Source: Candidatus Nanoarchaeia archaeon
GTDB taxonomy: Archaea > Nanobdellota > Nanobdellia > SCGC-AAA011-G17 > JAFCDX01
Assembly (NCBI GenBank): GCA_041651575.1
Contig: JBAZJB010000001.1
Span: forward strand, 74,430 to 138,429
Direction: 5' to 3'
Length of the DNA: 64,000 bases
Of the stretch, positions 1-12,744 are shown in pieces. The notes below the pieces were generated by a model that did not search any database, had not been told where the DNA came from, and was given only the letters and a program-made list of their open reading frames with translations. Positions within the stretch are counted from its first letter, which is position 1. The number at the start of each line of letters is the position of its first letter. The position numbers and the translations under genes are program-made.

Positions 1-201
1 CATTATTTCTTTTACTGTTTCTTCATTAGATAAATTTCTTGCTTGAGCATCAAGTAACTTAACAGAATGACTATATTTTTCTAAATTTGCTGCAATGAAA
101 CAGAGACCTAAATTAGGTAATTGACCTACCCTAATCTTACTCTTTGAGCCATATCCTTCTTTTATAAAATCATAAGGAGGAGTTATAAGTAAGACTTTCA
201 T
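1..201 (-). CDS. B12-binding radical SAM protein, N-terminal fragment (gene continues beyond window start)
   Basis: Minus-strand ATG at 201. Translation MKVLLITPPYDFIKEGYGSKSKIRVGQLPNLGLCFIAANLEKYSHSVKLLDAQARNLSNEETVKEIM resembles the N-terminal B12-binding domains of the ORFs at 2189-3604 and 10488-11894. It is absent from the ORF track, probably because the gene runs off the window edge. Confidence 0.5.
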   Translation of the reverse strand, partial: MKVLLITPPYDFIKEGYGSKSKIRVGQLPNLGLCFIAANLEKYSHSVKLLDAQARNLSNEETVKEIM

Positions 202-387
202 ATTTTTTCTCCTTTCAATTTAAGTTTTATTTCTAGGCATATTTTCATTTGTTAGACAATTATTTAACTATTTAAAAACGTTTGTTTTGTTTTTAAATAA
301 ATTTCTAAACCTTTTATTTTAGGTGCAATTTAAATAATTTTCTATAGATACCGATTATTTTATAAATAGATTATAATCTTTATTCAA

Positions 388-1089
388 ATGGACCTTTCAA
401 TTATAGTTCCGGTTTATAATGAAGAGAAAAGAATACAGCCTTTTCTTCCAAATTTGATAGATTTTTCTAAAAAAAACTTAAAAAATTATGAAATTCTCTT
501 AATAAATGATGGATCTAAAGATAATACGCTGAATGTTTTGAAAGAACTTATAAAAAATAATAAAACAACAAAAATAATTTCTTATAATGAAAATAAAGGA
601 AAAGGTTATGCTATACGCGAAGGCATTTTTTCTTCTAAGGGAAGCAAAGTTATGTTTATAGATGCCGATGGTTCTATAATGCCTGATCAAATTCCAAACC
701 TTGTAAAAGAATTAGAACATTATGATTGTGTTGTCGGTAATAGAAAAGATAAAAATTCAAAAGTAACAACTTCAAGATATAGAGCTTTTACACAAATTTT
801 ATTTAATGGAATAGTAAGGGTTTTATTTTGGACAGGAATAGATGATAATCTGTGTGGTTTTAAGGGTTTTAAAAAAGAAGTTGCAAAAGATTTATTTCAA
901 GAAATGTATGATTATGGATGGATATTTGATGTAGAATTATTTTATAAAATGAAAAAGAAAGGGTATTCATTAAAAAGGATTCCTTTGGTATGGACACACG
1001 TTGATGATTCAAAAATGAAATTTACAGATCCTGCTTGGATGTTTATTAAATTATTAATAATCTTAAAATTAAGACTTAAAAAATGGTAA
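388..1089 (+). CDS. Family 2 glycosyltransferase (dolichyl-phosphate sugar synthase-like)
   Basis: N-terminal 'IIVPVYNEE...INDGSKDNT' and 'FIDADG' are GT2 signature motifs. Its stop overlaps the next start (ATGGTAA). Confidence 0.7.
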   Translation: MDLSIIVPVYNEEKRIQPFLPNLIDFSKKNLKNYEILLINDGSKDNTLNVLKELIKNNKTTKIISYNENKGKGYAIREGIFSSKGSKVMFIDADGSIMPDQIPNLVKELEHYDCVVGNRKDKNSKVTTSRYRAFTQILFNGIVRVLFWTGIDDNLCGFKGFKKEVAKDLFQEMYDYGWIFDVELFYKMKKKGYSLKRIPLVWTHVDDSKMKFTDPAWMFIKLLIILKLRLKKW

Positions 1090-2114
1090 GAATAGGGAAT
1101 CAAAATTATAGTTTTAAAGAACTTTGGAAAATTAAGAAATCTATTTTTCTTGCTGTAATCTCTCCAAAAAAGTTTTATAATTTTTTTAAAGTAAAGTACT
1201 CAGAATTTAGAAAAAATACAAAAGTTTCTGGTCTTCCTTATTCAACTTTCATAGAAACGAGTTCTTTTTGTAATTTAAGATGTCCTATGTGTTTGAAATT
1301 GCAAAAAAATTCTAAATTTGATAATAAAAATATGACTTTAGAGCAATATAATGAAATAATGAAGCAACTTGGCCCAACTATGATGACATTAAGGTTGTGG
1401 AACTATGGAGAACCTTTGATTAATAAGGATATTTTTGAAATGATTAAGTTGGCTAAGAAATATAGAATTTTTACTGTACTTTCTACAAATGGAGTATTAA
1501 TGACTAAGGAAGTTTCTAGAAAATTACTTGAATCCGGATTAGACTTTTTAGTTATTTCATTTGATGGAGCTTCAAAAGAAACGTATGAAAAAAACAGGAA
1601 ACAAGGAGTTTTTGAAGTAGTATTAAAAAATGTACAAAATTTCATGGAATTAAAAAAACAAATGAAGAAAAATAACCTTTTGGTTTCTATACAGTTCATT
1701 ATTATGAATACTAATGAAAATGAAGTTGAAAAAATAAAAGAAATTACTAATAATCTTGGTGCAGATAAATTAATGTTAAGAGTATTAAATGTTGTATCTA
1801 AAAAAGGTTCTGAATTACTTCCAAAAAACAAAAAATATGAAAATCTTGAGCAAGAACCAGAAAAAAATCTTAATTTCTGTTCAAATGTTTGGGAAGAGAC
1901 AGTAATTAATTCTACAGGGATTGTAACCCCTTGTTGTATGGATGCGGCAATTGAATATCCCTTTGGTAATGTTTTTTCAGAAAGTTTTAAGGATATATGG
2001 AATGGTCCAAAATATTTAGAATTTAGGAAAAAAATACTTCAAAATATAAATCAAATTAAAATTTGTAATGCTTATTGTTATAAAAAGGATAATAAAATTA
2101 ATTTTATAAAATAA
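1083..2114 (+). CDS. Radical SAM protein with C-terminal SPASM/twitch-like Cys cluster
   Basis: CxxxCxxC motif 'CNLRCPMC' near the N-terminus. C-terminal Cys-rich region 'PCCMDAAIEYPFGN...CNAYCY'. Confidence 0.65.
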   Translation: MVRIGNQNYSFKELWKIKKSIFLAVISPKKFYNFFKVKYSEFRKNTKVSGLPYSTFIETSSFCNLRCPMCLKLQKNSKFDNKNMTLEQYNEIMKQLGPTMMTLRLWNYGEPLINKDIFEMIKLAKKYRIFTVLSTNGVLMTKEVSRKLLESGLDFLVISFDGASKETYEKNRKQGVFEVVLKNVQNFMELKKQMKKNNLLVSIQFIIMNTNENEVEKIKEITNNLGADKLMLRVLNVVSKKGSELLPKNKKYENLEQEPEKNLNFCSNVWEETVINSTGIVTPCCMDAAIEYPFGNVFSESFKDIWNGPKYLEFRKKILQNINQIKICNAYCYKKDNKINFIK

Positions 2115-2188
2115 TTATTTCTATATTGTTAATATTATAAAAGCTTTTGTAAAATCTTTTGGTAATTTAAAACTTTTATATTCCTAAT

Positions 2189-3604
2189 TCATATGATTGC
2201 CTTACTTTGTTTTAATGCTTCTTTATAGTTTTTAAATACTTTTAATGCAAATTTAATTGATATACAATCAATAAAATCTGGCAAAGTTAATTTTAAATTT
2301 TTCTTTGAAATATTTTTTTGTATAGCTGTTTTAATAAATTTATCATACCATATACCAAATTTATCCTTATCTATTTTATTTGTTAGTAATACATCTGGAT
2401 TATACTTTAAAATAGTTTTATGTTTTTCATCATAATAACTTTCTTTTATTTTTTTATGTTTTATTGCGTACTCCCATAAATCTGTTCCAGGTAAGGGCGT
2501 TGTTTGATATATTTGCACTAAATCTATTCCAGGATTTAACATAAAATCAAAGCTTTTTTGTAAATCTTCTTCGGTTTCATCAGGATTTCCTATCATAATA
2601 TATCCTACTACATTTAAATTATATTCTTTACAAAGTTTTATAGCAGTAAGTCCTTGAGCAACTGTTACTGTATTCTTTTTTAGATATTTTAATACTTTAT
2701 CAGAACCGGATTCAAAACCAAAACAAACAGTTTGAGCATTTAATCTCTTTAATAAATCACAAATTTCTCTGTCAATTATATTTGCTCTGGCATAAATCTC
2801 AAAATCTATTTTTTTATTTAATTTCTTTTGTTCTAATAATTCTACTATCTTTCTAAATCTATCTTTATTTGCAATAGCTAGATCATCATATATTGAAATA
2901 TGTTTAACTTTATATTTTTTATATAACATTTCTATTTCACTTACCACATATTCAGCAGAATGCCATCTTACCTTATTAAATAAAGTATTAGAACCGCAGT
3001 AAACACAATGATAAGGACATCCTCTCGAAGTCATTATGGTCCCTTTTTTCCCAATTTTTGTACCGATTCTTCCAGGAACTAAATAGAAACTTTTCATTTT
3101 TAATAATTCTCTTGCGATTGGGGGAATAGAATCTAAAGGTTCAATTAATTCTTCTCTTGGTGTTTTTATTAATCTTTCATTATCTTTAAAACAAATACCT
3201 TTTATTTTTTTTAAATTTTGTAAATCGAACTTTTTATTTTTATCGTATTCATTTAATAAATTCAAAAATATTTTTTCTCCTTCTCCCATAACACCAATAT
3301 CAAAATTTGTTTTTAATAGATCTAAAGGTTTAATAGTTATATGTACTCCTCCCAAAATTAAAGGAGCTTTTGTTATCTTTCTTAATTCTTTAGCTAATTC
3401 TTTAGCATCATAAAATTGTTCACTTACAGCACCAATTCCTATTATGTCTGGTTTATACTTTTTAATGGCTTTAATTGGGTTTTCTCTGTCTATTATTTTG
3501 ATATCTTTAAAATTACTATATTTTTTAACATAGGAAGCCAAATAAGATAATCCAATTGGTGGTGCACCAAATACCTTTTCTATATTAATTAGAGCTATTT
3601 TCAT
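2189..3604 (-). CDS. B12-binding domain radical SAM protein
   Basis: N-terminal Rossmann-like B12-binding region (MKIALINIEK...GIGAVSE) followed by 'SRGCPYHCVYCGS' (CxxxCxxC). Confidence 0.65.
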   Translation of the reverse strand: MKIALINIEKVFGAPPIGLSYLASYVKKYSNFKDIKIIDRENPIKAIKKYKPDIIGIGAVSEQFYDAKELAKELRKITKAPLILGGVHITIKPLDLLKTNFDIGVMGEGEKIFLNLLNEYDKNKKFDLQNLKKIKGICFKDNERLIKTPREELIEPLDSIPPIARELLKMKSFYLVPGRIGTKIGKKGTIMTSRGCPYHCVYCGSNTLFNKVRWHSAEYVVSEIEMLYKKYKVKHISIYDDLAIANKDRFRKIVELLEQKKLNKKIDFEIYARANIIDREICDLLKRLNAQTVCFGFESGSDKVLKYLKKNTVTVAQGLTAIKLCKEYNLNVVGYIMIGNPDETEEDLQKSFDFMLNPGIDLVQIYQTTPLPGTDLWEYAIKHKKIKESYYDEKHKTILKYNPDVLLTNKIDKDKFGIWYDKFIKTAIQKNISKKNLKLTLPDFIDCISIKFALKVFKNYKEALKQSKAII

Positions 3605-3656
3605 GGATTATGATAAAGACAAAAAGCTTTTATAACTTTCTCCTTATAATGGTTTT

Positions 3657-4496
3657 ATGAAAAGAAATCCAAAAGTCTCTATAATCGCCGCGGCTTATAA
3701 TGAAGAGAAATACATAGGAAAGTTGATAGGTTCAGTTTTAAATCAAAATTATAAAAACATAGAAATTGTGATAGTTGATGATAATTCTAAAGATAATACT
3801 TATAATATTATAACAGCTTATTCTAAAAAACATAAGAATGTAATTGTATTACAACAAGATAAAAAACTAAGAGGACCTGGAAATGCTTGGAATTTGGCAG
3901 TAAGAAAAGGAAGTTCTGGAGATATTTTATTTTTTGAAGGTGCAGATACAATTTTAGCTAAAGATTATGTTGAAAAAATGATAGCACCAATAATTTCTGG
4001 AGAGGTAATTGGTACTTTGCATAAAGAAGAAAAAATAGCTAATAAAAATAAGATTCTTGCTAGGGCTTATGGAAAAAGAATTTGTGTTGATAAAAATAAT
4101 GAAGGAATAATATTTGGGGCTATAAGAAAAGATAAATGGGAAGAAACAGGAGGGTTTGATCCTTCTTTGGGATATGCAGATGATCATACTTTATATTTAA
4201 AATTAAAAATTAAATCTAAAGGAGTTGATGCAGATATTTATCATCATAATCCAGAAACTTTAGCTGAAATATGGAAACAATATCTTTGGATTGGAGCTTC
4301 AACTAAAATTCCTTTTAAAATCTTGATAAGTTTGCCTGTTTTTCCTCTTTGGGTTTTATATAAAACTTTGAAACATTTAAAAGAAGATTTTTATTTACCT
4401 TTTATTCTATTTTTACCTTTCTTTTATACAATGAAGTATTTTGGATTTTATTTTGGTGTATTAAGAAAATTAATTTTCAAAAATATATATAGATAA
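3657..4496 (+). CDS. Family 2 glycosyltransferase with C-terminal membrane segment
   Basis: 'VSIIAAAYNEEKYI...VIVDDNSKDNT' GT2 motifs. Hydrophobic C-terminus. Confidence 0.65.
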   Translation: MKRNPKVSIIAAAYNEEKYIGKLIGSVLNQNYKNIEIVIVDDNSKDNTYNIITAYSKKHKNVIVLQQDKKLRGPGNAWNLAVRKGSSGDILFFEGADTILAKDYVEKMIAPIISGEVIGTLHKEEKIANKNKILARAYGKRICVDKNNEGIIFGAIRKDKWEETGGFDPSLGYADDHTLYLKLKIKSKGVDADIYHHNPETLAEIWKQYLWIGASTKIPFKILISLPVFPLWVLYKTLKHLKEDFYLPFILFLPFFYTMKYFGFYFGVLRKLIFKNIYR

Positions 4497-4498
4497 AA

Positions 4499-5620
4499 TT
4501 ATTTTTTATAAAATTCTTTTATTTTATCACAAGTATAATCAATTTCATCTGTTTTTAATGTTGGGAACATGGGTAAAGATAATATTTCATTGCTTACTTT
4601 TTCTGTTACTGGAAAATCTCCTTTTTTATAACCTAAATCTTTAAAGCAAGGTTGTAAATGTATTGGAACTGGATAATGTTTTCCTACAGAAATTCCATTT
4701 TCAGTTAAATATTTTTCAAGTTCATCACGATTTTGTGTTCTTATAACATATAAATGATAAACATGAGAAACATTTTCATTTTCTTTAGGAGTTATTACTG
4801 GTTCTAAATCTTTAAGTCTTTCATTATATTCTTCAGCATGTTTTCTTCTTAATTCATTCCAACGATCTAACACTTTTAGTTTAGTGTCTAACACTACTGC
4901 TTGTATCGTATCTAATCTACTATTTGTTGGAATATCGTTATGTACATATTTTTTTTCTTGACCATAATTTCTTATTTTTTTTATTCTTTCAGCAACTTCT
5001 TTATCATCTGTAGTTATTGCTCCACCATCTCCATAACAACCTAAGTTTTTTCCTGGATAAAAACTGAATGCAGCAATATTCCCTAGATTTCCTGTTTTTC
5101 TACTATAAAATTCAGCACCATGTGCTTGACAAGAATCTTCTAATATTAATATATCTAATATTTCTTGTTCTAATCTACGTATATCTACTGGTTGCCCATA
5201 TAAATGAACGGGAATTATTGCTTTAGTGCGTTTTGTTGTATTTTCTTGTATTTGGTTTATATCCAGGTTATAATTTGATTCATCAATATCAATTAAAATC
5301 GCATTTGCTCCAACACCTATTATAGCACCTACTGTTGCATTAAAAGTATTTGCTACGGTTATTACATCATCTCCTGGTTTTATATTATTAACTTTCAAAG
5401 CCAATTCTAAAGCAGATAATCCATTTCCTACACCTATACAATATTTTACCCCGCAATAATCTGCAAAATTCTTTTCAAATTCTTCAACACCTTTTCCAAG
5501 AATAAAATCTTTATTTTCTATAACTGTTAATATTTTTTCTTTATTTATTTCTTCTATGCTTCTTCCATCTATTTTAGTTTCTCTTTCGTCTCTTCTTAAA
5601 TCTCCAAATGGAACTTTCAT
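4499..5620 (-). CDS. DegT/DnrJ/EryC1/StrS-family PLP-dependent sugar aminotransferase
   Basis: Family-typical motifs (…GDDVITVANTF.AT…, …DSCQAHGAEF…, 'FSFYPGKNLG'). Confidence 0.7.
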   Translation of the reverse strand: MKVPFGDLRRDERETKIDGRSIEEINKEKILTVIENKDFILGKGVEEFEKNFADYCGVKYCIGVGNGLSALELALKVNNIKPGDDVITVANTFNATVGAIIGVGANAILIDIDESNYNLDINQIQENTTKRTKAIIPVHLYGQPVDIRRLEQEILDILILEDSCQAHGAEFYSRKTGNLGNIAAFSFYPGKNLGCYGDGGAITTDDKEVAERIKKIRNYGQEKKYVHNDIPTNSRLDTIQAVVLDTKLKVLDRWNELRRKHAEEYNERLKDLEPVITPKENENVSHVYHLYVIRTQNRDELEKYLTENGISVGKHYPVPIHLQPCFKDLGYKKGDFPVTEKVSNEILSLPMFPTLKTDEIDYTCDKIKEFYKK

Positions 5621-6132
5621 TTTAAATTATGCATAAGAGCAGCATATTTTTTGTCTCTTACATCTCCAATTATTCTTGCAGGATTTCCAACAACTACTGA
5701 ATATGGTTTAACATCTTTAGTTACCATACTTCCTCCACCTATAAAAGAATATATTCCTATTTTAATTCCAGGCCTTATTATTGCTCCTCCACCAATTGTA
5801 GCATTATCTTCAACTACAACTTCTTCTAATTTCCATTCTCCTCTGGAAGCTTTTTCTGCTGTTGGAAACATGTCATTTAAAAAAGTTGCTCTAGGACCAA
5901 CAAAAACAGAATTTCCTATTATTGTTCCTTCTGGAACGAAAACATAAGATTGTAATCTACAATTATTTCCAATTCTAGCATCTTTTTTTATTTCAGAATA
6001 ACTTCCCACTTGGGTATTTTCTCCAATAATACAACCATATAAATTACAAAAGTGCCATATTTTAGAACCTTTTCCAATTACAACATCATCAGTTATTAAA
6101 CTATTTTTTCCAACGAAATAATCTTTACTCAT
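5617..6132 (-). CDS. Hexapeptide-repeat (LbH) sugar N-acetyltransferase
   Basis: Repeated [LIV]G..x..[LIV] hexapeptide periodicity (IGKGSKIWHFCNLYGCIIGENTQVGSY...). 4-nt overlap with the aminotransferase. Confidence 0.6.
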   Translation of the reverse strand: MSKDYFVGKNSLITDDVVIGKGSKIWHFCNLYGCIIGENTQVGSYSEIKKDARIGNNCRLQSYVFVPEGTIIGNSVFVGPRATFLNDMFPTAEKASRGEWKLEEVVVEDNATIGGGAIIRPGIKIGIYSFIGGGSMVTKDVKPYSVVVGNPARIIGDVRDKKYAALMHNLK

Positions 6133-7124
6133 CTTAAAATAACCTCCAATCCATTTCTTTTTTTTGATTCTTCTGCTGCGCTTAATATTTTTACTATTTC
6201 AAGTCCATCTCTTCCATCACTTCTACATTGTTCTGAACCATTTATACAATTAAAAAAATGATTTAATTCTTCAAGTAAAGGTTGTTTTGATTGAATTTTT
6301 GGAATTAATATATCTCCGTCTCTTGTTGCTGCTTGAAAATCTCCAAATTCTCCACTTATTGGTTGATAATCTACTCCTTTATTATAAATGAAAAGTTTTT
6401 CTGTAGGTTGAACATCATCAAATAAAACTGCTTTTTTAGTTCCACCAACAACAAATTTTCTTTCTTTTATTGGATGTTCCCAATTAACATATATTGTAGT
6501 TAAAATATTATTTGGATATTTTAAATTCAAAGAAACAATATCATCTACTATTTTATTATGAGAAACTCCTTGATAACTTACTGAGATGGGTGAATTTCCT
6601 ATTAAAAAATTTGAAACATAAATATCGTGTGTTGCTAAATCCCAAAGAGCGCTTACATCTTTTCTTATTGGTCCAAGACCTACTCTTTTTGCTTCTAGAT
6701 ATCTTAAACTTCCTAATTCTCCTGATTCTATAATCTTTTTTAATTGAATTACTGCAGGATTATATTTGAAAATATGGCCTACCATTAAAACAACTTTTTC
6801 TTTTTCTGCTATTTTTATTAGTTCTTCTGCATCGCTAACATCATCAGTTATTGGTTTTTCTACTAAAACATGTTTTCCGTGATTTAAACAATCTTTTGCA
6901 ATATTATAATGCATTTTTGTAGGAGTAGCAATTATTACAGAATCTACTTTATCAAGAATTTTAGAATAATAATCAATTCCTTTTTCTTTTAATAATTGGG
7001 CAGGCAATCCTTTTGAAGGAATTGGATCACAGATATACTTTAAATCGACTTTTTCTGAATCTCTTAGGCTATTAACATAATTCTTACCCCAATATCCACA
7101 TCCGATTAATGCTACATTGTTCAT
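6129..7124 (-). CDS. Gfo/Idh/MocA-family NAD-dependent sugar oxidoreductase
   Basis: N-terminal 'VALIGCGYWGKNYV' Rossmann motif and 'EKP' motif. Together with the aminotransferase and acetyltransferase it resembles the WbpB/WbpE/WbpD-type acetamido-sugar module. Confidence 0.6.
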   Translation of the reverse strand: MNNVALIGCGYWGKNYVNSLRDSEKVDLKYICDPIPSKGLPAQLLKEKGIDYYSKILDKVDSVIIATPTKMHYNIAKDCLNHGKHVLVEKPITDDVSDAEELIKIAEKEKVVLMVGHIFKYNPAVIQLKKIIESGELGSLRYLEAKRVGLGPIRKDVSALWDLATHDIYVSNFLIGNSPISVSYQGVSHNKIVDDIVSLNLKYPNNILTTIYVNWEHPIKERKFVVGGTKKAVLFDDVQPTEKLFIYNKGVDYQPISGEFGDFQAATRDGDILIPKIQSKQPLLEELNHFFNCINGSEQCRSDGRDGLEIVKILSAAEESKKRNGLEVILR

Positions 7125-7237
7125 TTTACAATCTTTTAGACTTTAAATAATTTATAAATGTTTCTATCGGATAGTAGATAAACCTTATGAATTTAATTTC
7201 TATAAGAATAACATTTAAATATCTTTAAATTTGTTAA

Positions 7238-8587
7238 TTGGTTATGGAAGGAAAAAAAGAGACAGTATACTATTTCGGTTTAACTTTTATATCTAAATTT
7301 ATAACCTATCTTTTATTACTTATTTTAGCTAATTATTTTTATATTTCAGAATATGGTAAAGCTTCATTTGCTTTGGCAGTTTTTAATATAATCTATTTTT
7401 TTATGTTAATTGGTTTACCGGATCTATTTGTTCCATGGTTTATACATAAAAAAGATGTAAATTCGGTATTTTATTTTTTAGTATTATTAACTGGAATTTT
7501 TACTGTTTTAGGACTAGCTTTTACACTAATTTTTTATCCTTGGATCTTACCTTTAGCAATTTCACTTCCATTTTTATTAGTATATCTAGTAGGTTATTCT
7601 ATCTTTAGAATTAAAAAACAATATCATCTATTAAAAATTTCAGATATACTTTTTATTTTCTTAGTCTTTATTTCAGTATTTTTCTTAAAAAGTTATGGTA
7701 AATTTGGAATTACTTTAGGGTATAGTGTTGCTTATATTTTAACAAGCTTCTTTATTTTTAGTTTAACAAGAAAAGAAATATTTGGTTTGGCAAAAACTTT
7801 TAAATTAGATTTCAAAGCTATATTTCTTTATTTAAAAAAAGGTTTGTCTACAGCATTAATAATTTTGTCTTATTTATTCATAGGTTGGATAGATACCGTA
7901 ATACTTGGTGCAATGTCTACATTCGATAATGTTGCAAGATATAATATCTCTAGTCCAATTGCAAATATATTAACCATAGTTCCATTGTCTTTATCTATGT
8001 TTTTATTGACTAGGATATCTGAAGTTAAAAAAGAAAAATTATCTTTATCCATTTTTAATAGGGCCTTAAGGTTATCTACTTCTTTTTCATTACTATTGGG
8101 AATAGGAATTTTATCTTTACTTAATATATTATTAAAAATATTTTTTAAACAATATATGGATATTGGAATATATGTAACCTTGCTTATGATTGGAATATTC
8201 TTATTTTGTATATACACCTTAATTGCTACATATTTATCTGCTAAGCTTACTCCAGAAAAAACAGTTTTACCAATAACAATTGCTGCATTGTTAAATATAA
8301 TATTAGATATACTTTTAATTCCAAATTATGGTTTGTTAGGAATTTGTATTGCTACCCTGATTGCTCATACTGTTGCATTTATCCTTTTATTATCTAAAAT
8401 GAAACTATTAATTAAATATTTTTATATTATTCCACTTTCTGTTTTATTACTTATTGCTTTTTACTTGGGATTATATGGTTTAATTTTAATCCCTATTGTA
8501 ATATTATCTTTGTTTTTGTTTAAATTAATAAACTTAGAAGACTTAAAAGTCGTAAAAGGAGTTATTTTTAAAATTTTAAGAATTTAA
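7238..8587 (+). CDS. Polysaccharide/oligosaccharide flippase (Wzx-like, MOP superfamily)
   Basis: 449 aa and highly hydrophobic with about 12-14 predicted TM segments. Lies within the glycan cluster. Confidence 0.5.
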   Translation: MVMEGKKETVYYFGLTFISKFITYLLLLILANYFYISEYGKASFALAVFNIIYFFMLIGLPDLFVPWFIHKKDVNSVFYFLVLLTGIFTVLGLAFTLIFYPWILPLAISLPFLLVYLVGYSIFRIKKQYHLLKISDILFIFLVFISVFFLKSYGKFGITLGYSVAYILTSFFIFSLTRKEIFGLAKTFKLDFKAIFLYLKKGLSTALIILSYLFIGWIDTVILGAMSTFDNVARYNISSPIANILTIVPLSLSMFLLTRISEVKKEKLSLSIFNRALRLSTSFSLLLGIGILSLLNILLKIFFKQYMDIGIYVTLLMIGIFLFCIYTLIATYLSAKLTPEKTVLPITIAALLNIILDILLIPNYGLLGICIATLIAHTVAFILLLSKMKLLIKYFYIIPLSVLLLIAFYLGLYGLILIPIVILSLFLFKLINLEDLKVVKGVIFKILRI

Positions 8588-8764
8588 ACCAAAACTATAT
8601 AAATTTATAATTCTTTTATTAATGATGAAAGAAAAATTTATATTAAGTATATTGGTTTTTTATGTTTTAATTCTGTATCCTTACTGGTTATTATATAATT
8701 TAGTTGGTTTTCCTTATTATTTTTTTATAAGTTTGATTGGATTTATAATTTTTGTTAAATTACT

Positions 8765-10456
8765 ATGAAACAAGAAAGAATATTTTGGATATTTGTAATA
8801 ATTTCAATTTTAGTACATATTTATGCAATGACATTTCCATTAGCAACACTAGAAGATGAATCTTTTCATGTAGAAAGAGCAATTTATAGTACACAAATAT
8901 TGGATCTAATCAATCCTTTAGTACTTACATTTTTAATTTTATTAAGCATAGGCTTTTTATTTCTTTTATATAAATTATATTCTAAGAAGGTTAATTATTT
9001 TTTATTGGTTTTAATTCCAATAGCTATAATCTATTACTTTTTAATTAATTATTTTGCAATTAGATTTAGCACAGCCCAATTTGGTAGTCTGGATTTGAAT
9101 AATTTTTCTTGGTTAGTTAGATATGGTTCTATAGGCACAGTTGTTTATACTTTACAACTTTTTGTTTTTGGATACAAAGAATGGGCAATGCGTTTGTTTC
9201 CTTTAATTTTTTCTGTTTTAGCTTCTTTTATGATGTATAAATTGGTACTTTTATATAAAAATGAAAATTGGGCCCTATTTTCTGCAATTTCTTTATTATT
9301 CATGCCAGGATTTTTTTATTTTGTTAATATAAGTCAGCCAACTACAGGGGTTATTTTCTTTACTTTAACATCATTATACTTTTTACTGAAATATGTAAAA
9401 CAAAAAGAGCAGAAACATTTGATTTATATGACTTTATTCTTAATTTTAGGTTTTCAATATAAAGAAACTTTCTTTTTAATATACGGGATAATATTTTCTT
9501 ACTTAATTTATTTATATTTGATTAAAGAAAAGGATATAAACTTTAAAAAAATACTAAAATATATTTTTTTAAGTTTAATACCTTTAATTTTATGGTTAAT
9601 TGTACAGATGAGATTTAATGCAAATCCTTCTGCAAGCAGAATTTTCTTTTTAGATTCAAGTTTATTTACCTTTACAAATTTTTTTAGGTATATTATTCAT
9701 TTACCAGAACAAGTTACCTTACCTTTAACAATATTGTTTTTAATTTCTCTTCCTTTTATTAGTTATAATATTTTTAAGAAAAGAGACCAATTATCTTTTA
9801 TTTTTTTAGTTTATTTTTTAATTCATTTTGTATTTTTTACAAAAGACAATCTTAGAAATTTTATGGTGGTATATAGGTATGGAGCAGATTTAATTCCTCC
9901 TGTTGCTTATTTATCTTTTTTCTTTTTAGAAAAGTTTGATAAAAAAGAGATAATTAGGTTTTTATCTTATGGATTAGTTTTATTTTTATTAGTATCAAGT
10001 TGTTTTTTGACTTATAATCATTGGGAAAAGAGATTTATTCCTATGGATGGAACTTTTTCTTATATAAAAGAGAATGTCCCCGAAGATGCTAAGATATTAA
10101 AAACAATGGCTCCAAATCCTTATAAATTTTATATGGGGAAATATGAATTAAAACAAGAATTTAAACATGAAGTCTGGAAAAATTCTTCAGAACAGAATAT
10201 TACTAATTTGTATTCTTTTATGAAAAATAATAATTATACTTATTTTATATTCCCAAATCCGATAATAAGTTATCAAAGTTATTGGCCAACCGATTATGGG
10301 TGGGTTACTTCTTGGGTATATAAACCTGAATTAAAATTAGTATCTGTTTTAAATGAATCTTTATTGTATAACTTAGAAATTAATAATACTTATTTTGATA
10401 TAGTCTATCGTGAAGAATTAGGTCCTAATGCCTTATATTTAATAAAAATTAGATAA
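8765..10456 (+). CDS. GT-C fold membrane glycosyltransferase (ArnT/PMT-like)
   Basis: Polytopic N-terminal domain with first-loop motif 'LEDESFHVERAIY' resembling the DE..R/E motif of ArnT/PMT enzymes. Soluble C-terminal domain. Confidence 0.4.
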   Translation: MKQERIFWIFVIISILVHIYAMTFPLATLEDESFHVERAIYSTQILDLINPLVLTFLILLSIGFLFLLYKLYSKKVNYFLLVLIPIAIIYYFLINYFAIRFSTAQFGSLDLNNFSWLVRYGSIGTVVYTLQLFVFGYKEWAMRLFPLIFSVLASFMMYKLVLLYKNENWALFSAISLLFMPGFFYFVNISQPTTGVIFFTLTSLYFLLKYVKQKEQKHLIYMTLFLILGFQYKETFFLIYGIIFSYLIYLYLIKEKDINFKKILKYIFLSLIPLILWLIVQMRFNANPSASRIFFLDSSLFTFTNFFRYIIHLPEQVTLPLTILFLISLPFISYNIFKKRDQLSFIFLVYFLIHFVFFTKDNLRNFMVVYRYGADLIPPVAYLSFFFLEKFDKKEIIRFLSYGLVLFLLVSSCFLTYNHWEKRFIPMDGTFSYIKENVPEDAKILKTMAPNPYKFYMGKYELKQEFKHEVWKNSSEQNITNLYSFMKNNNYTYFIFPNPIISYQSYWPTDYGWVTSWVYKPELKLVSVLNESLLYNLEINNTYFDIVYREELGPNALYLIKIR

Positions 10457-10487
10457 ATTTATATATTTTTCATTAATACTCTGAACT

Positions 10488-11894
10488 ATGAAAACAACTC
10501 TTATTTTTCCTCCATTTGAGAGAGAAATCAATGATAATCTGCAAATAAGCACAGTTAAGAAATTTGCAGGAGTCCCTGTACCTTTAAGTTTAATGTATAT
10601 TGCCGCTACATTAGAACAAGCAGGTCATGATGTTACCATTCTAGATGCAAATGCTTTGGGTTATACAAAAGACCAAATTATTTCTTATCTTAAAGAAAGA
10701 AAAGTAGAAGTTGTAGGTCTGACTGTAACTACATTAACTTATCATAAAGAAGCGGCATGGATAGAAGCCATAAAAAAAGAACTTCCTGATGTAACAATGA
10801 TTGTTGGAGGAAAACATGCCTGGTATTATTCTAAAGAATTACTAAAAAATAAATATATAGATTATGTTTTTGTTGGAGAAGCAGATAATTCTATTGTAGA
10901 ATTTGCAAATGCTTGGGATAAAGATCAGAAAAAATTAAAAAAAATAAAAGGGGTTTGGTCTAGAAATGGAAATAAAATAATTGATAATGGAATGTCAGAT
11001 CCCATTACAGATTTAGATTCTTTACCTTTCCCTGCAAGACACATGTTACCTTTAGGAAATTATTGTACTTTTATAACTAAAAAACAAAAGTTTTCTACTA
11101 TGATTACAACAAGAGGATGTGTAGGAAGATGTACTTTTTGTGATGGTCATTTAGATAGATATAGGGCAAGAAGTGCAGAAAAAGTTGTACAAGAAATGCA
11201 ATTAGCTTATGATATGGGTGTAAGAGAAATAGAATTGTATGATGACGCATTTACAATAAATAAACAAAGAGCAAGAGATATATGTGAAGGCATCAAAAAA
11301 AGAAAATTAAAATTAAGATGGGATATGAGAACAAGAGTTGATATGGTTGATGAAGAAATATTAAAAATTTTAAAATCTGCAGGATGTTGCAGAATTAATT
11401 ATGGTATTGAATCTGGAGATCAGGGAATTTTAAATTTTATGAAGAAAGATATTACTCTTGAGAAAGTTGAAAAAGCAGTTTTATTAAGTAAAAAATTAGG
11501 ATTTGAAGTTTTTGGTTATTTTATTCTTGGATGTCCTGGAGAAACTGAAGAAACTTTGAAAAAAACAATTGAATTCTCTAGAAAATATCCTTTTGATTAT
11601 GTTCAATTTACAAGAATGGTTCCTCTACCAAGAACAGAGTTGTATAGACAATATATGGAAGAAAAAGGACAGGATTATTGGTTAGAATATACTCAAGGTC
11701 AACATAAAGATGAACAAATTCATTTAGTTGGTACGCAGTTATCTGAAAAAAGAATAGAAGAGGCAGTTAAAAATGCTTATAGGGGATTTTATCTAAGGCC
11801 AAAACAAGTTTTAAAAACTCTTTTACGTACTAGATCCTTTGGTGAATTGAATAAATACATTAGTGCAGGAATTAATTTTGTATTTAAAAAATAA
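10488..11894 (+). CDS. B12-binding domain radical SAM protein
   Basis: B12-binding-like N-terminus (LSLMYIAATLEQAGHDVTILD) and 'TRGCVGRCTFCDG' CxxxCxxC. Confidence 0.65.
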   Translation: MKTTLIFPPFEREINDNLQISTVKKFAGVPVPLSLMYIAATLEQAGHDVTILDANALGYTKDQIISYLKERKVEVVGLTVTTLTYHKEAAWIEAIKKELPDVTMIVGGKHAWYYSKELLKNKYIDYVFVGEADNSIVEFANAWDKDQKKLKKIKGVWSRNGNKIIDNGMSDPITDLDSLPFPARHMLPLGNYCTFITKKQKFSTMITTRGCVGRCTFCDGHLDRYRARSAEKVVQEMQLAYDMGVREIELYDDAFTINKQRARDICEGIKKRKLKLRWDMRTRVDMVDEEILKILKSAGCCRINYGIESGDQGILNFMKKDITLEKVEKAVLLSKKLGFEVFGYFILGCPGETEETLKKTIEFSRKYPFDYVQFTRMVPLPRTELYRQYMEEKGQDYWLEYTQGQHKDEQIHLVGTQLSEKRIEEAVKNAYRGFYLRPKQVLKTLLRTRSFGELNKYISAGINFVFKK

Positions 11895-11958: not shown

Positions 11959-12744
11959 ATGGTAAAAATAGGTATTATTGGGGGTTCTGGGTTGGATAAT
12001 CCAGGTTTATTAACTGAGTATAAAGAAGTTAGTGTAAAAACTCCATATGGATCACCAAGTTCTAAATTAGTTTGTGGAAAAATAAATAACGTTGATGTTG
12101 TTATTTTATCCAGACATGGAAAAGATCATACTATCATGCCTACAAATGTAAATTCCCAAGCAAATATTTTTGCTCTTAAAAAATTAGGTTGTACTCACGT
12201 AATTGCTACAACTGCTTGTGGTTCTTTAAATAAAAAAATAAAACCAGGAACTTTAGTATTGCCTAATCAATTTATTGATAGAACTACAAAAAGAAAACAA
12301 ACTTTTTTTGAAAAAGGAAAAGTATGTCATATTTCTATGGAAGAGCCTTTTTGTAAAGCTTTAAGATTATTAATTGGACAAACAATAAAAGAATTAAAAT
12401 TAAATTATCAAACTGATAAAACTGTTGTTACAATTGAAGGTCCAAGATTTTCTTCAAGAGCAGAATCTTTAATGAATCAAAAATTTGGAGGAGATATTGT
12501 AAATATGTCTACTGTTCCTGAAGTTGTTTTAGCTAGAGAAGCAGGTTTATGTTATCAAGCTATTGCAATGGTAACTGATTATGATTGTTTTATGGAACAT
12601 AAAGAAAATGTTAGTTGGGAACAAATTTCTAAAATCATGAGTAAGAATGCAGACAATGTTAAAAACATATTAGTTAATGTTATTAATAAAATAAATTATG
12701 ATCACTGTATTTGCAGAGACTCTTTAAAGAGTGCGTTGGTTTAA
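11959..12744 (+). CDS. mtnP: 5'-methylthioadenosine / purine nucleoside phosphorylase
   Basis: 'MVKIGIIGGSGL' N-terminus and the overall PNP/MTAP-family pattern. Confidence 0.65.
   Translation: MVKIGIIGGSGLDNPGLLTEYKEVSVKTPYGSPSSKLVCGKINNVDVVILSRHGKDHTIMPTNVNSQANIFALKKLGCTHVIATTACGSLNKKIKPGTLVLPNQFIDRTTKRKQTFFEKGKVCHISMEEPFCKALRLLIGQTIKELKLNYQTDKTVVTIEGPRFSSRAESLMNQKFGGDIVNMSTVPEVVLAREAGLCYQAIAMVTDYDCFMEHKENVSWEQISKIMSKNADNVKNILVNVINKINYDHCICRDSLKSALV

What the first reader, a model, noticed from the sequence alone, without database searches (positions are those of the whole stretch)
1..11894. Surface-glycan biosynthesis cluster unusually rich in B12-binding and SPASM radical SAM enzymes
Within about 12 kb, two GT2 transferases, a Gfo/Idh/MocA dehydrogenase, a DegT aminotransferase, a hexapeptide acetyltransferase (a WbpB/E/D-like acetamido-sugar module), a Wzx-like flippase and an ArnT/PMT-like GT-C transferase are interleaved with four radical SAM genes. 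These are the SPASM-type gene at 1083-2114 and the B12-binding types at 2189-3604, 10488-11894 and the partial copy at 1-201. B12-dependent radical SAMs typically perform C-methylations or other radical alkylations. Their co-clustering with nucleotide-sugar and lipid-linked-glycan genes suggests a heavily modified, possibly C-methylated, protein-linked or lipid-linked glycan. Alternatively this could be radical modification of a lipid carrier. This combination is not a textbook archaeal Agl pathway. It fits the dense N-x-S/T sequons of the surface proteins in this window.
Basis: partly seen in the sequence, partly recalled or inferred. Interest (0 to 1): 0.75.

Follow-up and report, generated by a model that had tools for sequence, protein, structure and literature searches.

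The report
Radical-SAM-rich surface glycan gene island
A tiny uncultivated (DPANN) archaeon carries a sugar-coat gene island unusually packed with vitamin-B12-type radical enzymes, and part of the island recurs in unrelated bacteria, so an uncharacterised kind of radical sugar tailoring probably happens on cell surfaces.

Summary

The window cuts the island. On the source contig it continues at least 9.6 kb upstream, giving five B12-domain rSAMs and one SPASM/Twitch rSAM in about 21.5 kb, with five GT2 and two PMT_2 GT-C transferases.

The source is a Nanoarchaeia (DPANN) metagenome genome.

No rSAM reaches the cut-off of any curated family, whether lipid, tRNA, RiPP or cofactor. The nearest families are HpnJ and BchE, and the nearest folds are AprD4 and BtrN. 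These are mostly non-methylases, several acting on sugars, so C-methylation is only one option.

The link to glycosylation is conserved:
- Immediate neighbours of homologues in many phyla are enriched for GT2 (21/138 versus 2/140) and PMT_2 (11/138 versus at most 1/140).
- A GT2-fused homologue exists.
- An Omnitrophota bacterium carries orthologues of five upstream genes at 36-54% identity.

Best model: small GT2s load sugars on polyprenyl phosphate, rSAMs tailor them, a Wzx-like flippase and GT-C enzymes export and attach them.

The chemistry and the acceptor are unknown. The N-sequon link is weak.

The parts
1..201 (-). N-terminal 67 codons of a 468-aa B12-binding-domain radical SAM protein ('B12_C'). 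The rest lies upstream of the window.
   Evidence: The minus-strand translation MKVLLITPPYDF... is identical to the start of L003:8408-9814(-), which carries PF02310+PF04055. Best NCBIfam hit is HpnJ at 205 bits, below the 577.6 cut-off.
388..1089 (+). 233-aa soluble GT2, like a polyprenyl-phosphate sugar synthase (GtrB/ArnC/DPMS-like).
   Evidence: PF00535, 110 bits. Nearest solved proteins are GtrB sll0501, ArnC and Pyrococcus DPMS. NCBIfam hits to PgfS, ArnC, AglJ, Dol-P-hexose transferase and PpgS are all below cut-off. No TM segment. Overlaps the next gene by 7 bp.
1083..2114 (+). Radical SAM enzyme with an abridged SPASM (Twitch-like) C-terminal domain. Likely translationally coupled to the GT2 upstream.
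   Evidence: PF04055 68.6 bits and PF13186 56.9 bits. C63x3C67x2C70, with only C266, C284, C285, C328 and C332 conserved C-terminally. Model pLDDT 90.5. Nearest fold is BtrN (TM 0.73 on target), then SuiB, BlsE, SkfB, anSME and DesII. No NCBIfam cut-off reached. The GT2-SPASM overlap is kept in a relative.
2189..3604 (-). 471-aa B12-binding-domain radical SAM protein ('B12_D').
   Evidence: PF02310 55.9 bits and PF04055 87.5 bits. C196x3Cx2C. Best NCBIfam hit is BchE at 157 bits, below 481. Nearest PDB sequence is MgmA 9ccb at 59 bits. A 471-aa B12-rSAM gene occupies the same position in L089.
3657..4496 (+). 279-aa GT2 glycosyltransferase.
   Evidence: PF00535, 102 bits. Only sub-threshold NCBIfam hits. 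Syntenic in L089.
4499..5620 (-). DegT-family PLP sugar aminotransferase, probably C-3 specific (WbpE/QdtB-like).
   Evidence: PF01041, 361 bits. Nearest solved proteins are 7b0d (366 bits), QdtB (358) and WbpE (254). Overlaps the acetyltransferase gene by 4 bp.
5617..6132 (-). Left-handed beta-helix (hexapeptide) sugar N-acetyltransferase (WlbB/WbpD/QdtC-like).
   Evidence: PF00132, 84.5 bits. Nearest solved proteins are 7s43, the WxcM-like 4mzu, WlbB 3mqg and QdtC 3fs8.
6129..7124 (-). Gfo/Idh/MocA oxidoreductase, probably a UDP-GlcNAc 3-dehydrogenase (WbpB/GnnA-like).
   Evidence: PF01408 and C-terminal domains. NF040723, archaeal UDP-GlcNAc 3-dehydrogenase, 190 bits, below the 450 cut-off. 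The nearest solved protein is 7bvj, identified as GnnA in 10.1101/2024.11.05.622173.
7238..8587 (+). Divergent MOP-superfamily (Wzx/Polysacc_synt-like) flippase. The gene caller starts it at ATG 7244.
   Evidence: About 12-13 hydrophobic segments. Own Pfam hit is only MurJ at E 0.4. All 10 remote homologues tested (E 6e-12 to 2e-8) are PF01943 members. The order 447-aa protein, PMT_2, B12-rSAM is kept in Woesearchaeota relatives.
8765..10456 (+). 563-aa GT-C glycosyltransferase of the PMT_2 (ArnT/PMT-like) family.
   Evidence: PF13231, 45.5 bits, above the 26.1 cut-off. About 10 TM segments. No PDB sequence match. A 31-bp gap to the co-directional B12-rSAM; the pair is conserved at 66-69% identity level.
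10488..11894 (+). 468-aa B12-binding-domain radical SAM protein ('B12_E'), co-directional with the GT-C gene.
   Evidence: PF02310 79.3 bits and PF04055 95.2 bits. C211x3Cx2C. Best NCBIfam hit is HpnJ at 222 bits, below 577.6. Model pLDDT 90.9. Nearest fold is AprD4 (TM 0.74), then TsrM, OxsB, MgmA, CysS and TokK. More than 3188 homologues, with neighbours enriched in GT2 and PMT_2.
11959..12744 (+). S-methyl-5'-thioadenosine phosphorylase (MTAP). A possible accessory gene that removes adenosyl by-products of SAM chemistry, or simply a housekeeping neighbour.
   Evidence: TIGR01694, 303.8 bits, above the 274.85 cut-off. Co-directional, 64 bp after B12_E. Present in the same place in one relative (L087) and absent in another (L085). 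The role is inferred.

Best explanation
The region is the right-hand part of a surface-glycoconjugate island of about 21.5 kb or more in a Nanoarchaeia/Woesearchaeota-type DPANN archaeon.

Proposed flow:
1. The Gfo / acetyltransferase / DegT trio turns UDP-GlcNAc into a 2,3-diacetamido sugar nucleotide.
2. Small soluble GT2 enzymes, which resemble GtrB, ArnC and DPMS, put sugars on a polyprenyl (dolichyl) phosphate carrier at the cytoplasmic face.
3. The cytoplasmic radical SAM enzymes (five with a B12-type Rossmann domain, one Twitch/SPASM type), together with class I methyltransferases and an FAD oxidoreductase encoded upstream, tailor these lipid-linked or nucleotide-linked sugars by radical chemistry. 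Options are C-methylation (MoeK5/GenK-like), ring contraction (HpnJ/calditol-synthase-like), or dehydration, oxidation or decarboxylation (AprD4/BtrN/BlsE-like).
4. The Wzx-like flippase moves the carrier-bound sugar outward.
5. The PMT_2 GT-C enzymes attach it to a surface protein, glycan or lipid.

Shown: gene content, family assignments, synteny in relatives, cross-phylum neighbourhood enrichment, a natural rSAM-GT2 fusion, and a cross-domain orthologous cassette.

Inferred: the order of steps, the substrate, the reaction type and the acceptor.
For: Gene content and concentration:
- Domains are. rSAM and GT2 genes are confined to the first 12 kb of the 64-kb window.
- The source contig continues upstream with GT2 x3, PMT_2 (701 aa), two SAM methyltransferases, an amine-oxidase-type FAD protein and further B12-rSAMs.

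Coupling of each rSAM to a transferase gene:
- GT2_388 and the SPASM gene overlap by 7 bp.
- PMT563 and B12_E are 31 bp apart.
- The upstream genes form a nine-gene same-strand run from B12_C to B12_A.

Synteny in relatives:
- Kept in related Nanoarchaeota/Woesearchaeota genomes.
- A distant locus (SPASM homologue 40% identical) again combines rSAM, SPASM, B12-rSAM, DegT, FAD oxidoreductase, PMT_2 and DUF2079.

Census of 72 loci holding B12_E homologues, drawn from CPR, DPANN, Bathyarchaeia, Omnitrophota, Elusimicrobia, Planctomycetota and Chloroflexota:
- Immediate neighbours: GT2 21/138, PMT_2 11/138, B12-rSAM 12/138.
- Genes more than 7 kb away: GT2 2/140, PMT_2 at most 1/140, B12-rSAM 2/140.
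- Fisher p = 1.6e-5, 0.003 and 0.006 respectively.
- 33/72 loci have a GT2 within 5 kb.

Fusion and cassette:
- P0108 is a 767-aa B12-rSAM fused to GT2.
- Omnitrophota locus L096 holds, in one co-directional run, orthologues of B12_B (54%), GT2_233 (52%), B12_A (46%), MT298 (45%) and the FAD protein (36%), plus two polytopic membrane proteins.
- A Planctomycetota locus has the B12_B orthologue (56%) next to a GT2, a methyltransferase and nucleotidyltransferases.

Folds:
- B12_E is nearest AprD4, solved with an aminoglycoside sugar substrate.
- The Twitch rSAM is nearest BtrN, with BlsE and DesII also among the top hits. From memory, these three act on sugar or cyclitol substrates.

Other parts:
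- The nearest solved relatives of GT2_388 are polyprenyl-phosphate glycosyltransferases.
- The flippase assignment rests.
Against: - No biochemical datum exists for any member.
- The GT2 association holds in only about 46% of sampled loci, so the broad B12_E family is functionally mixed.
- Whether the Rossmann domain binds cobalamin is not shown. The nearest fold, AprD4, is, as I recall, cobalamin-free.
- The distal control genes come from the same loci and may still lie inside extended clusters. My ORF calling in the loci is crude.
- The nearest curated families include lipid-acting enzymes (HpnJ, the ladderane protein).
- The acceptor is unknown, and no AglB lies in the window.
Confidence: 0.55

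Rival explanations
1. Glycolipid or lipid remodelling. The rSAMs act on a membrane lipid or its sugar head group rather than on a glycan destined for protein. One example is converting a hexosyl head group into a carbocyclic cyclitol, as proposed for HpnJ and calditol synthase. Another is methylating or cross-linking isoprenoid chains, as Gmm, Grs or Tes do. The GT2 and GT-C enzymes would then make the glycolipid.
For: - HpnJ is the best NCBIfam hit for B12_E (222 bits) and B12_C (205 bits), and the second-best hit for B12_B (188 bits).
- The ladderane-lipid model TIGR04072 scores 107-140 bits.
- The SPASM gene's best PDB sequence hit is the tetraether synthase GDGT-MAS at 47 bits.
- B12-rSAM and SPASM/Twitch rSAM lipid modifiers are established in archaea (PMC11214058, PMC13459092).
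- A related cluster carries CDP-alcohol phosphatidyltransferase and a cytidylyltransferase.
Against: - All these scores are far below family cut-offs.
- The GDGT-MAS match covers only the rSAM core.
- Gms carries a characteristic COG4001 domain, and no domain other than Radical_SAM and SPASM was found in the 343-aa protein.
- The same cassette occurs in Omnitrophota, Planctomycetota and CPR bacteria, which are not expected to make archaeal tetraether lipids.
- No isoprenoid or hopanoid core genes are in the island.
- Nucleotide-sugar enzymes, a Wzx flippase and GT-Cs point to exported glycans.
Confidence: 0.2
2. Tailoring of a cytidylyl-activated small alcohol or phosphonate. Some of the B12-rSAMs, especially B12_B, methylate a CMP/CDP-linked polyol phosphate or phosphonate, as Fom3 does. 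The product is then added as a phospho-substituent to the glycan.
For: - B12_B's best NCBIfam hit is the Sden_1168 'P-methyltransferase' family at 203 bits.
- Its bacterial orthologues sit next to IspD-like or NTP_transferase genes, zinc alcohol dehydrogenases and ribulose-phosphate epimerase.
- A related archaeal cluster has CTP_transf_like plus CDP-OH_P_transf.
- In the published sequence network HpnJ groups with Fom3 and MoeK5, and SD1168's function is unknown (PMC9204698).
Against: - The score is below the cut-off (203 versus 575).
- No PEP mutase or other phosphonate genes were seen in any locus.
- No nucleotidyltransferase lies in the window part.
- This does not explain the rSAMs paired with the GT-C and the GT2.
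Confidence: 0.12
3. Peptide or protein maturation. The rSAMs modify a ribosomal peptide or a surface protein (RiPP-like C-methylation, cross-links or epimerisation), and the glycosyltransferases are merely adjacent or glycosylate that peptide.
For: - Sub-threshold hits to the RiPP maturases ApyD (99-179 bits) and rSAM_ocin_1 (96-117 bits).
- SuiB, SkfB and anSME are among the fold matches of the Twitch rSAM.
- A 48-codon ORF was called between the flippase and the GT-C gene in one assembly.
Against: - No recognisable precursor, leader peptidase, RiPP recognition element or export ABC transporter lies in the island.
- The small ORF was not called in the other assembly.
- The conserved partners across phyla are GT2, GT-C, methyltransferases and sugar-nucleotide enzymes.
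Confidence: 0.05
4. Unrelated neighbours. The rSAMs are housekeeping enzymes (tRNA or cofactor modification) that happen to lie among glycosylation genes.
For: Radical SAM genes are common in anaerobes. JGI pipelines label the homologues 'BchE' or 'YgiQ'.
Against: - MiaB/RimO/MtaB and cofactor models score 27-84 bits against cut-offs of 180-650.
- Gene overlaps and short gaps link them to transferase genes.
- There is a fusion to GT2.
- Synteny holds across domains.
- The neighbourhood enrichment is statistically significant.
Confidence: 0.03

Closest known systems
Hopanoid side-chain module HpnI (GT2) / HpnK / HpnJ (B12-domain rSAM), and archaeal calditol synthase Cds
   Same: A GT2 puts a hexosamine on a lipid, and a B12-domain rSAM then remodels that lipid-bound sugar; a ring contraction is proposed. 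HpnJ is the best-scoring curated family for B12_E and B12_C (222 and 205 bits, full-length alignment) and second-best for B12_B (188 bits) (PMC9204698, PMC13459092).
   Different: The scores are well below the HpnJ cut-off of 577.6. There are no squalene-hopene cyclase, HpnH, HpnG or HpnK genes. The host is a DPANN archaeon. Here there are five B12-rSAMs, plus GT-C enzymes and a flippase, which implies an exported product.
Cobalamin-dependent rSAM C-methyltransferases acting on sugars (MoeK5 of moenomycin; GenK/GenD1 of gentamicin)
   Same: The same two-domain architecture (Rossmann plus rSAM barrel). The substrates are sugars, lipid-linked in the case of MoeK5. MoeK5 and Fom3 co-cluster with HpnJ in the published sequence network (PMC9204698).
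   Different: Those enzymes belong to antibiotic pathways of actinomycetes. No orthology is shown, and no reference sequences were available for a direct test. Methyl transfer is unproven here.
AprD4 (rSAM 1,2-diol dehydratase of apramycin) and BtrN / BlsE / DesII (sugar- or cyclitol-acting rSAMs)
   Same: These are the best structural matches. B12_E matches AprD4 at TM 0.74/0.76. The Twitch rSAM matches BtrN at TM 0.73 on the target, with BlsE and DesII also near the top. From memory, all act on amino-sugar, cyclitol or nucleotide-sugar substrates.
   Different: Sequence identity is only 13-20%. The phmmer alignment to AprD4 covers only the rSAM core (residues 173-403), whereas the alignments to OxsB, TokK and CysS extend into the N-terminal domain.
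Three-component polyprenyl-phosphate sugar systems: ArnC/ArnD/ArnT, GtrA/GtrB/GtrC, mycobacterial PpgS/Rv3779, Haloferax AglD/AglR/AglS
   Same: A small GT2 makes the polyprenyl-P-sugar, a flippase moves it, and a GT-C enzyme transfers it outside the cell. In the Arn system the sugar is edited while on the lipid. The nearest solved relatives of GT2_388 are GtrB, ArnC and DPMS. The GT-C is PMT_2. The flippase is MOP type.
   Different: None of the known systems contains radical SAM enzymes. All equivalog scores are below cut-off. The GT2s here lack TM helices. The details of these reference systems are from my own knowledge.
WbpB/WbpE/WbpD (WlbA/C/B; GnnA/GnnB) 3-acetamido-sugar pathway
   Same: The same three enzyme families sit in one overlapping operon. 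The nearest solved proteins are GnnA, QdtB/WbpE and WlbB/QdtC.
   Different: No WbpA-type 6-dehydrogenase or WbpI epimerase was seen, so the product may be UDP-GlcNAc3NAc rather than the uronic acid. The NF040723 score is 190 against a cut-off of 450.

Membership tests
Class B (cobalamin-dependent) radical SAM enzymes | N-terminal B12-binding Rossmann domain (PF02310) followed by an rSAM barrel with CX3CX2C | tested here: met
   PF02310 scores 55.9 and 79.3 bits against a gathering score of 32.1, and PF04055 scores 87.5 and 95.2 bits. CX3CX2C is at residues 196 and 211. The model folds like TsrM, OxsB, MgmA, CysS and TokK.
Class B (cobalamin-dependent) radical SAM enzymes | Cobalamin actually bound and used | not testable with these tools
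   The GGxH segment is conserved in alignment A1. Sequence alignments to OxsB, TokK and CysS include the N-terminal domain. The top fold match, AprD4, is, as I recall, cobalamin-free.
Class B rSAM methyltransferases (HpnR, PhpK, TsrM, KedN5, MgmA, RiPP C-MTs) | Score at or above the curated cut-off of a methyltransferase equivalog | tested here: not met
   The best scores are 38-203 bits against cut-offs of 282-700 for every B12-rSAM of the island.
HpnJ (hopanoid cyclitol-ether rSAM) | TIGR03471 score of at least 577.6, and a hopanoid gene context | tested here: not met
   Scores are 222, 205, 188 and 106 bits. No shc, hpnH, hpnG or hpnK genes are in the island.
Archaeal/bacterial lipid-modifying rSAMs (GDGT-MAS/Tes, Gms, Gmm, Grs, ladderane protein) | Family-level sequence match, and for Gms the COG4001 domain | tested here: not met
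   TIGR04072 scores 107-140 bits, below 360. TIGR04190 scores 55-84 bits, below 500. GDGT-MAS matches at 47 bits over the rSAM core only. The 343-aa protein has no domain beyond Radical_SAM and SPASM.
tRNA/ribosomal methylthiotransferases (MiaB/RimO/MtaB) | Score at or above the curated cut-off | tested here: not met
   Scores are 27-55 bits against cut-offs of 251-357.
SPASM-domain rSAM | PF13186 match | tested here: met
   56.9 bits against a cut-off of 21.5.
SPASM-domain rSAM | Full seven-cysteine motif for two auxiliary clusters | tested here: not met
   Only C266, C284, C285, C328 and C332 are conserved in 24 homologues. The pattern and the best fold match (BtrN) fit a one-cluster Twitch-like domain.
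WbpB/WbpE/WbpD-type 3-acetamido sugar module | Gfo-family 3-dehydrogenase, DegT 3-aminotransferase and LbH N-acetyltransferase encoded together | tested here: met
   Three overlapping genes lie at 4499-7124(-). The nearest solved proteins are GnnA 7bvj, QdtB/WbpE and WlbB/QdtC. Substrate identity is inconclusive, because NF040723 scores 190 bits against a cut-off of 450.
Polyprenyl-phosphate GT2 + MOP flippase + GT-C system (Arn/Gtr/AglD-R-S type) | GT2 related to polyprenyl-phosphate glycosyltransferases | tested here: inconclusive
   The nearest solved proteins are GtrB, ArnC and DPMS. All NCBIfam equivalogs are below cut-off. No TM helix.
Polyprenyl-phosphate GT2 + MOP flippase + GT-C system (Arn/Gtr/AglD-R-S type) | MOP/Wzx flippase and GT-C transferase in the same cluster | tested here: met
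   PMT_2 scores 45.5 bits against a cut-off of 26.1. The 449-aa protein is linked to PF01943 through 10/10 remote homologues.
Archaeal N-glycosylation (Agl) pathway | AglB/STT3 oligosaccharyltransferase | tested here: not met
   All window ORFs of more than 600 aa are assigned to other families (PKD protein, MopE-repeat protein, P-type ATPase, Laminin_G protein, oxoacid oxidoreductase). No STT3 appears in the upstream 9.6 kb. The rest of the genome was not examined.

The most novel reading that the evidence does not exclude
A horizontally mobile cassette shared across domains (small GT2, class I methyltransferase, FAD oxidoreductase, two B12-type rSAMs, polytopic GT-C) builds a class of radically modified sugars not yet described on cell surfaces. 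These could be C-alkylated or carbocyclic sugars, or modified polyol-phosphate units. They would decorate ultra-small, host-dependent archaea (DPANN) and bacteria (Omnitrophota, CPR, Planctomycetota). The surface of such organisms would then depend on scavenged cobamide.
Probability: 0.3. Interest if true: 0.8.

Novelty: new variant of a known kind. Interest (0 to 1): 0.62.

Why it matters
Radical SAM tailoring of sugars is known almost only from antibiotic pathways and from two lipid head groups (the hopanoid cyclitol ether and calditol). A widespread, cross-domain set of B12-type rSAMs wired to GT2 and GT-C glycosylation genes would extend radical carbohydrate chemistry to ordinary cell-surface glycans.

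It would matter most in the uncultivated, episymbiotic lineages, where the surface mediates host attachment. It would predict new sugar structures, and it would tie surface biogenesis to cobamide cross-feeding.

It also gives enzymologists several compact, testable orphan families. The best candidate is the B12_B group, which is 53-60% identical between archaea and bacteria.

Tried and rejected
- Curated-family assignment of the rSAMs. NCBIfam scans of all complete rSAMs gave only sub-threshold hits, so no name can be transferred.
- Reading further upstream on the source contig. An exact-pattern scan of metagenome contigs found nothing. I used a genome whose B12_B homologue is 89% identical instead.
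- The window's own species did not appear among the 80 loci kept from the GTDB-representative scan (best match 40% identity).
- Local phmmer and iterated HMMs failed to detect the divergent GT-C proteins (3 and 2 hits), so the PMT_2 counts rest on the Pfam census. The first iterated run timed out.
- PMT563 has no PDB sequence match, even at E = 1.
- The afdb50 fold library was unavailable.
- Six literature searches for B12-rSAM plus glycosyltransferase clusters in DPANN, CPR or archaeal glycosylation returned nothing relevant.
- Recent foreign origin judged by composition was rejected. GC is 0.22-0.28 in the cluster and 0.24-0.29 elsewhere.
- The Wzx assignment from the protein's own Pfam hit was rejected as insufficient (MurJ, E 0.4). 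It was replaced by transitive evidence.

Full report
**1. Observation**

| Coordinates | Strand | Assignment |
|---|---|---|
| 1-201 | - | First 67 codons of a 468-aa B12-rSAM |
| 388-1089 | + | GT2 |
| 1083-2114 | + | Radical_SAM + SPASM |
| 2189-3604 | - | B12-binding + Radical_SAM |
| 3657-4496 | + | GT2 |
| 4499-5620 | - | DegT |
| 5617-6132 | - | Hexapeptide acyltransferase |
| 6129-7124 | - | Gfo/Idh/MocA |
| 7238-8587 | + | 449-aa polytopic protein |
| 8765-10456 | + | PMT_2 GT-C |
| 10488-11894 | + | B12-binding + Radical_SAM |

- The stretch at 1-201 on the minus strand encodes the N-terminus of a B12-rSAM that is complete on the source contig.
- All three complete rSAMs have CX3CX2C and no TM segments.
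- In the whole window, the CX3CX2C motif (in ORFs of at least 150 aa) and the profile hits for rSAM and GT2 occur only in this 12 kb. The concentration is therefore real.

**2. Source and true extent**

- Exact-protein look-ups place the window on a 314,865-bp metagenome contig (ENA ERZ27247363) and on a Logan assembly.
- NCBI calls the identical protein 'MAG: Candidatus Nanoarchaeia archaeon'. Long tRNA genes, apparently intron-containing, fit an archaeon.
- The window edge cuts the island. Upstream, all on the minus strand, lie the rest of B12_C, GT2 (246 aa), a methyltransferase (220 aa), PMT_2 (701 aa), GT2 (233 aa), a methyltransferase (298 aa), an amine-oxidase-type FAD protein (462 aa), B12-rSAM 'B12_B' (456 aa) and B12-rSAM 'B12_A' (465 aa, cut).
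- The island thus holds five B12-rSAMs, one SPASM-type rSAM, five GT2 and two GT-C genes in about 21.5 kb.
- The B12 paralogues are only 29-32% identical to one another, so they are old, distinct subfamilies.
- A closely related genome goes on with a cytidylyltransferase, a CDP-alcohol phosphatidyltransferase, a GT4, another GT2 and a third PMT_2/B12-rSAM pair.
- The right border is after B12_E or the MTAP gene. In relatives the next genes are TatD, pseudouridine synthase and the like.

**3. Non-rSAM parts**

- *Amino-sugar trio.* The three overlapping minus-strand genes match a 3-keto, 3-amino, 3-N-acetyl sugar module.
  - The nearest solved protein to the Gfo gene is 7bvj, identified as the UDP-GlcNAc 3-dehydrogenase GnnA in a preprint.
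  - The acetyltransferase is nearest WlbB, QdtC and related N-acetyltransferases.
  - DegT is nearest QdtB and WbpE.
  - The archaeal UDP-GlcNAc 3-dehydrogenase model scores 190 bits, below its 450 cut-off.
- *GT2_388.* Its nearest solved relatives are the polyprenyl-phosphate glycosyltransferases GtrB, ArnC and DPMS.
- *Upstream GT2s.* GT2_233 and GT2_246 hit AglJ, ArnC, Dol-P-hexose transferase and PpgS, all below cut-off.
- *The 449-aa protein.* It has about 12-13 hydrophobic segments. It is linked to Wzx-type flippases only transitively: all 10 remote homologues tested are PF01943 members.
- *Triad.* GT2 + MOP flippase + PMT_2 GT-C has the logic of the ArnC/ArnT, GtrB/GtrC and Haloferax AglD/AglR/AglS systems. 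That comparison is from my own knowledge.
- *MTAP.* The gene after B12_E is a bona fide MTAP (303.8 bits, above the 274.85 cut-off). It is kept in one relative and absent in another.

**4. What the rSAMs are and are not**

No rSAM reaches any NCBIfam cut-off. The best hits are:

| Protein | Best NCBIfam hits (bits) |
|---|---|
| B12_E | HpnJ 222, BchE 197 |
| B12_C | HpnJ 205, BchE 182 |
| B12_B | Sden_1168 203, HpnJ 188 |
| B12_D | BchE 157, MgmA family 122 |
| SPASM gene | Tungsten-cofactor and metalloenzyme maturases 120-125 |

- Lipid models score 55-140 bits, tRNA models 27-55 bits and RiPP models 96-179 bits. All are far below threshold.
- A review states that HpnJ, BchE and OxsB are non-methylases. 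It also says HpnJ groups with the methylases Fom3 and MoeK5 in the sequence network, and that SD1168 has no known function (PMC9204698).
- A confident model of B12_E (pLDDT 90.9) is closest to AprD4 bound to paromamine (TM 0.74/0.76). The cobalamin enzymes TsrM, OxsB, MgmA, CysS and TokK follow.
- The SPASM gene keeps only four or five C-terminal cysteines across 24 homologues.
- Its model (pLDDT 90.5) is closest to the Twitch enzyme BtrN, then SuiB, BlsE, SkfB, anSME and DesII.
- 'B12-type and SPASM-type rSAM' is therefore correct as architecture. 'C-methyltransferase' is not implied.

**5. Are the rSAMs functionally tied to glycosylation?**

Five independent lines of evidence say yes.

- *(a) Gene coupling.* GT2_388 and the Twitch rSAM gene overlap by 7 bp, and PMT563 and B12_E are 31 bp apart on the same strand. 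The upstream genes form a nine-gene same-strand run.
- *(b) Synteny in relatives.*
  - The order flippase, PMT_2, B12_E (and MTAP in one case) is kept in Woesearchaeota at 66-69% identity.
  - Almost the entire island is kept in a Nanoarchaeota genome whose SPASM protein is 82% identical.
  - A distant locus (40% identity) again mixes two SPASM rSAMs, three B12-rSAMs, two other rSAMs, DegT, two FAD oxidoreductases, PMT_2 and DUF2079.
- *(c) Census.*
  - A profile of B12_E homologues retrieved 80 loci. They come from CPR, DPANN, Bathyarchaeia, Omnitrophota, Elusimicrobia, Planctomycetota, Chloroflexota and others.
  - I scanned 138 immediate neighbours, and 140 genes more than 7 km... corrected: more than 7 kb away, from 72 of these loci.
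  - Fisher p values are:

  | Family | Immediate neighbours | Genes >7 kb away | Fisher p |
  |---|---|---|---|
  | GT2 | 21/138 | 2/140 | 1.6e-5 |
  | PMT_2 | 11/138 | at most 1/140 | 0.003 |
  | B12-binding | 12/138 | 2/140 | 0.006 |

  - The immediate neighbours also include 8 DUF1616 proteins, 7 SAM methyltransferases and 3 LPG_synthase_TM proteins.
  - 33 of 72 loci have a GT2 within 5 kb.
- *(d) Fusion.* A natural 767-aa B12-rSAM-GT2 fusion exists.
- *(e) Cross-domain cassette.*
  - B12_B is 53-60% identical to proteins of Planctomycetota and Omnitrophota.
  - In Omnitrophota locus L096, orthologues of B12_B (54%), GT2_233 (52%), B12_A (46%), MT298 (45%) and the FAD protein (36%) lie in one co-directional run. 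Two polytopic membrane proteins lie with them.
  - In a Planctomycetota locus, the B12_B orthologue (56%) lies beside a GT2, a methyltransferase, a second B12-rSAM and nucleotidyltransferases.

It is not met.

**6. Mechanism**

The best-supported model has five steps:
1. Nucleotide-sugar formation, including the 2,3-diacetamido sugar.
2. Transfer to polyprenyl or dolichyl phosphate by the small GT2s.
3. Radical tailoring by the soluble rSAMs at the cytoplasmic face, together with methyltransferases and the FAD enzyme. This would be analogous to ArnD or DprE1/E2 editing lipid-bound sugars.
4. Flipping by the Wzx-like protein.
5. Transfer by the GT-C enzymes to an external acceptor.

The steps from substrate to acceptor are inferred. 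The reaction type cannot be decided from sequence. I put C-methylation at roughly one in three. The remainder is ring contraction, dehydration, oxidation or decarboxylation.

The rivals, with my weights, are:
- remodelling of a glycolipid head group or of the lipid itself (0.2);
- tailoring of a CMP/CDP-activated alcohol or phosphonate (0.12);
- peptide or protein modification (0.05);
- unrelated neighbours (0.03).

**7. The sequon claim**

- The 1547-aa Laminin_G-type protein at 50450-55093 has 92 N-X-S/T sequons against 31.8 expected (z 11.7). A 297-aa protein at 62601-63494 is also enriched, with 8 sequons against 2.2 expected.
- The PKD protein (25343-28846) and the MopE-repeat protein (28881-30899) are depleted.
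- No AglB-sized gene is left unassigned in the window, and the island's GT-Cs are PMT_2 type.
- Heavy N-glycosylation of one surface protein is therefore plausible. Its link to this island is not shown.

**8. Novelty**

- Six literature searches found no description of B12-rSAM/GT2/GT-C clusters in DPANN, CPR or archaeal glycosylation. The library is incomplete, so this is absence of evidence.
- The closest characterised logic is HpnI/HpnJ, calditol synthase and MoeK5 (PMC13459092, PMC9204698).
- I classify the finding as a new variant of a known kind. It is a glycan island whose tailoring enzymes are radical SAM proteins of uncharacterised subfamilies, part of which is a cross-domain cassette.
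- Interest is 0.62. The association is solid and widespread, and the chemistry is open and testable, but nothing here is yet mechanistically demonstrated.

Noticed in passing
window 50450-55093 (+): A 1547-aa protein with Laminin_G_3 and Ig-like domains carries 92 N-X-S/T sequons against 31.8 expected from shuffles (z 11.7). A 297-aa protein at 62601-63494 has 8 against 2.2 (z 4.2). Other large surface-type proteins are depleted.
   Followed up: partly
window 11959-12744 (+): A bona fide MTA phosphorylase (TIGR01694, 303.8 bits, above cut-off) lies directly after the GT-C and B12-rSAM genes. It is kept there in one Woesearchaeota relative. It might clear adenosyl by-products of the rSAM and SAM enzymes.
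   Followed up: partly
L003 1-6835 (upstream of the window) and L096 10001-17553: A five-gene cassette (B12_B, GT2_233, B12_A, MT298, FAD oxidoreductase) is shared between this archaeon and an Omnitrophota bacterium at 36-54% protein identity. This suggests inter-domain transfer of a functional unit.
   Followed up: yes
L088 2325-4628: A 767-aa natural fusion of a B12-rSAM with a GT2 domain. It is followed by CysD- and CysN-like genes (PAPS_reduct, GTP_EFTU) and preceded by transposase fragments. It hints at a sulfated product in that organism.
   Followed up: no
L093 882-2321: In a genome whose B12_B homologue is 89% identical, the island also has a CTP_transf_like cytidylyltransferase and a CDP-alcohol phosphatidyltransferase. 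This suggests polyol-phosphate or phospholipid-type substituents.
   Followed up: no
L091 / L092 (JGI metagenome loci): An even denser locus in 17 kb: seven rSAM genes (two SPASM, three B12-type, two plain), two amine-oxidase FAD proteins, DegT, PMT_2 and two DUF2079 membrane proteins.
   Followed up: partly
window 13938-14996 (+) and 28881-30899 (+): Two proteins with Cu-binding_MopE repeats (63.5 and 63.9 bits). One lies just beyond the island. Function unknown.
   Followed up: no
window 45129-45223, 45962-46046 and 36279-36415 (all -): Three tRNA genes, two of them long (95 and 137 nt) and probably intron-containing. ARAGORN reports an odd 'His (atg)' anticodon for one, and misses the 137-nt gene that Rfam finds.
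   Followed up: no
window 55134-56951 (+): A 2-oxoacid:ferredoxin oxidoreductase-type protein (POR_N + TPP_enzyme_C). It is a possible source of low-potential electrons for radical SAM enzymes.
   Followed up: no
loci from Bathyarchaeia among L043-L079: Eight of the 138 immediate neighbours of B12_E homologues are DUF1616 membrane proteins. Several sampled loci are from Bathyarchaeia, but which loci hold the DUF1616 genes was not determined. This is a different and unexplained partnership.
   Followed up: no
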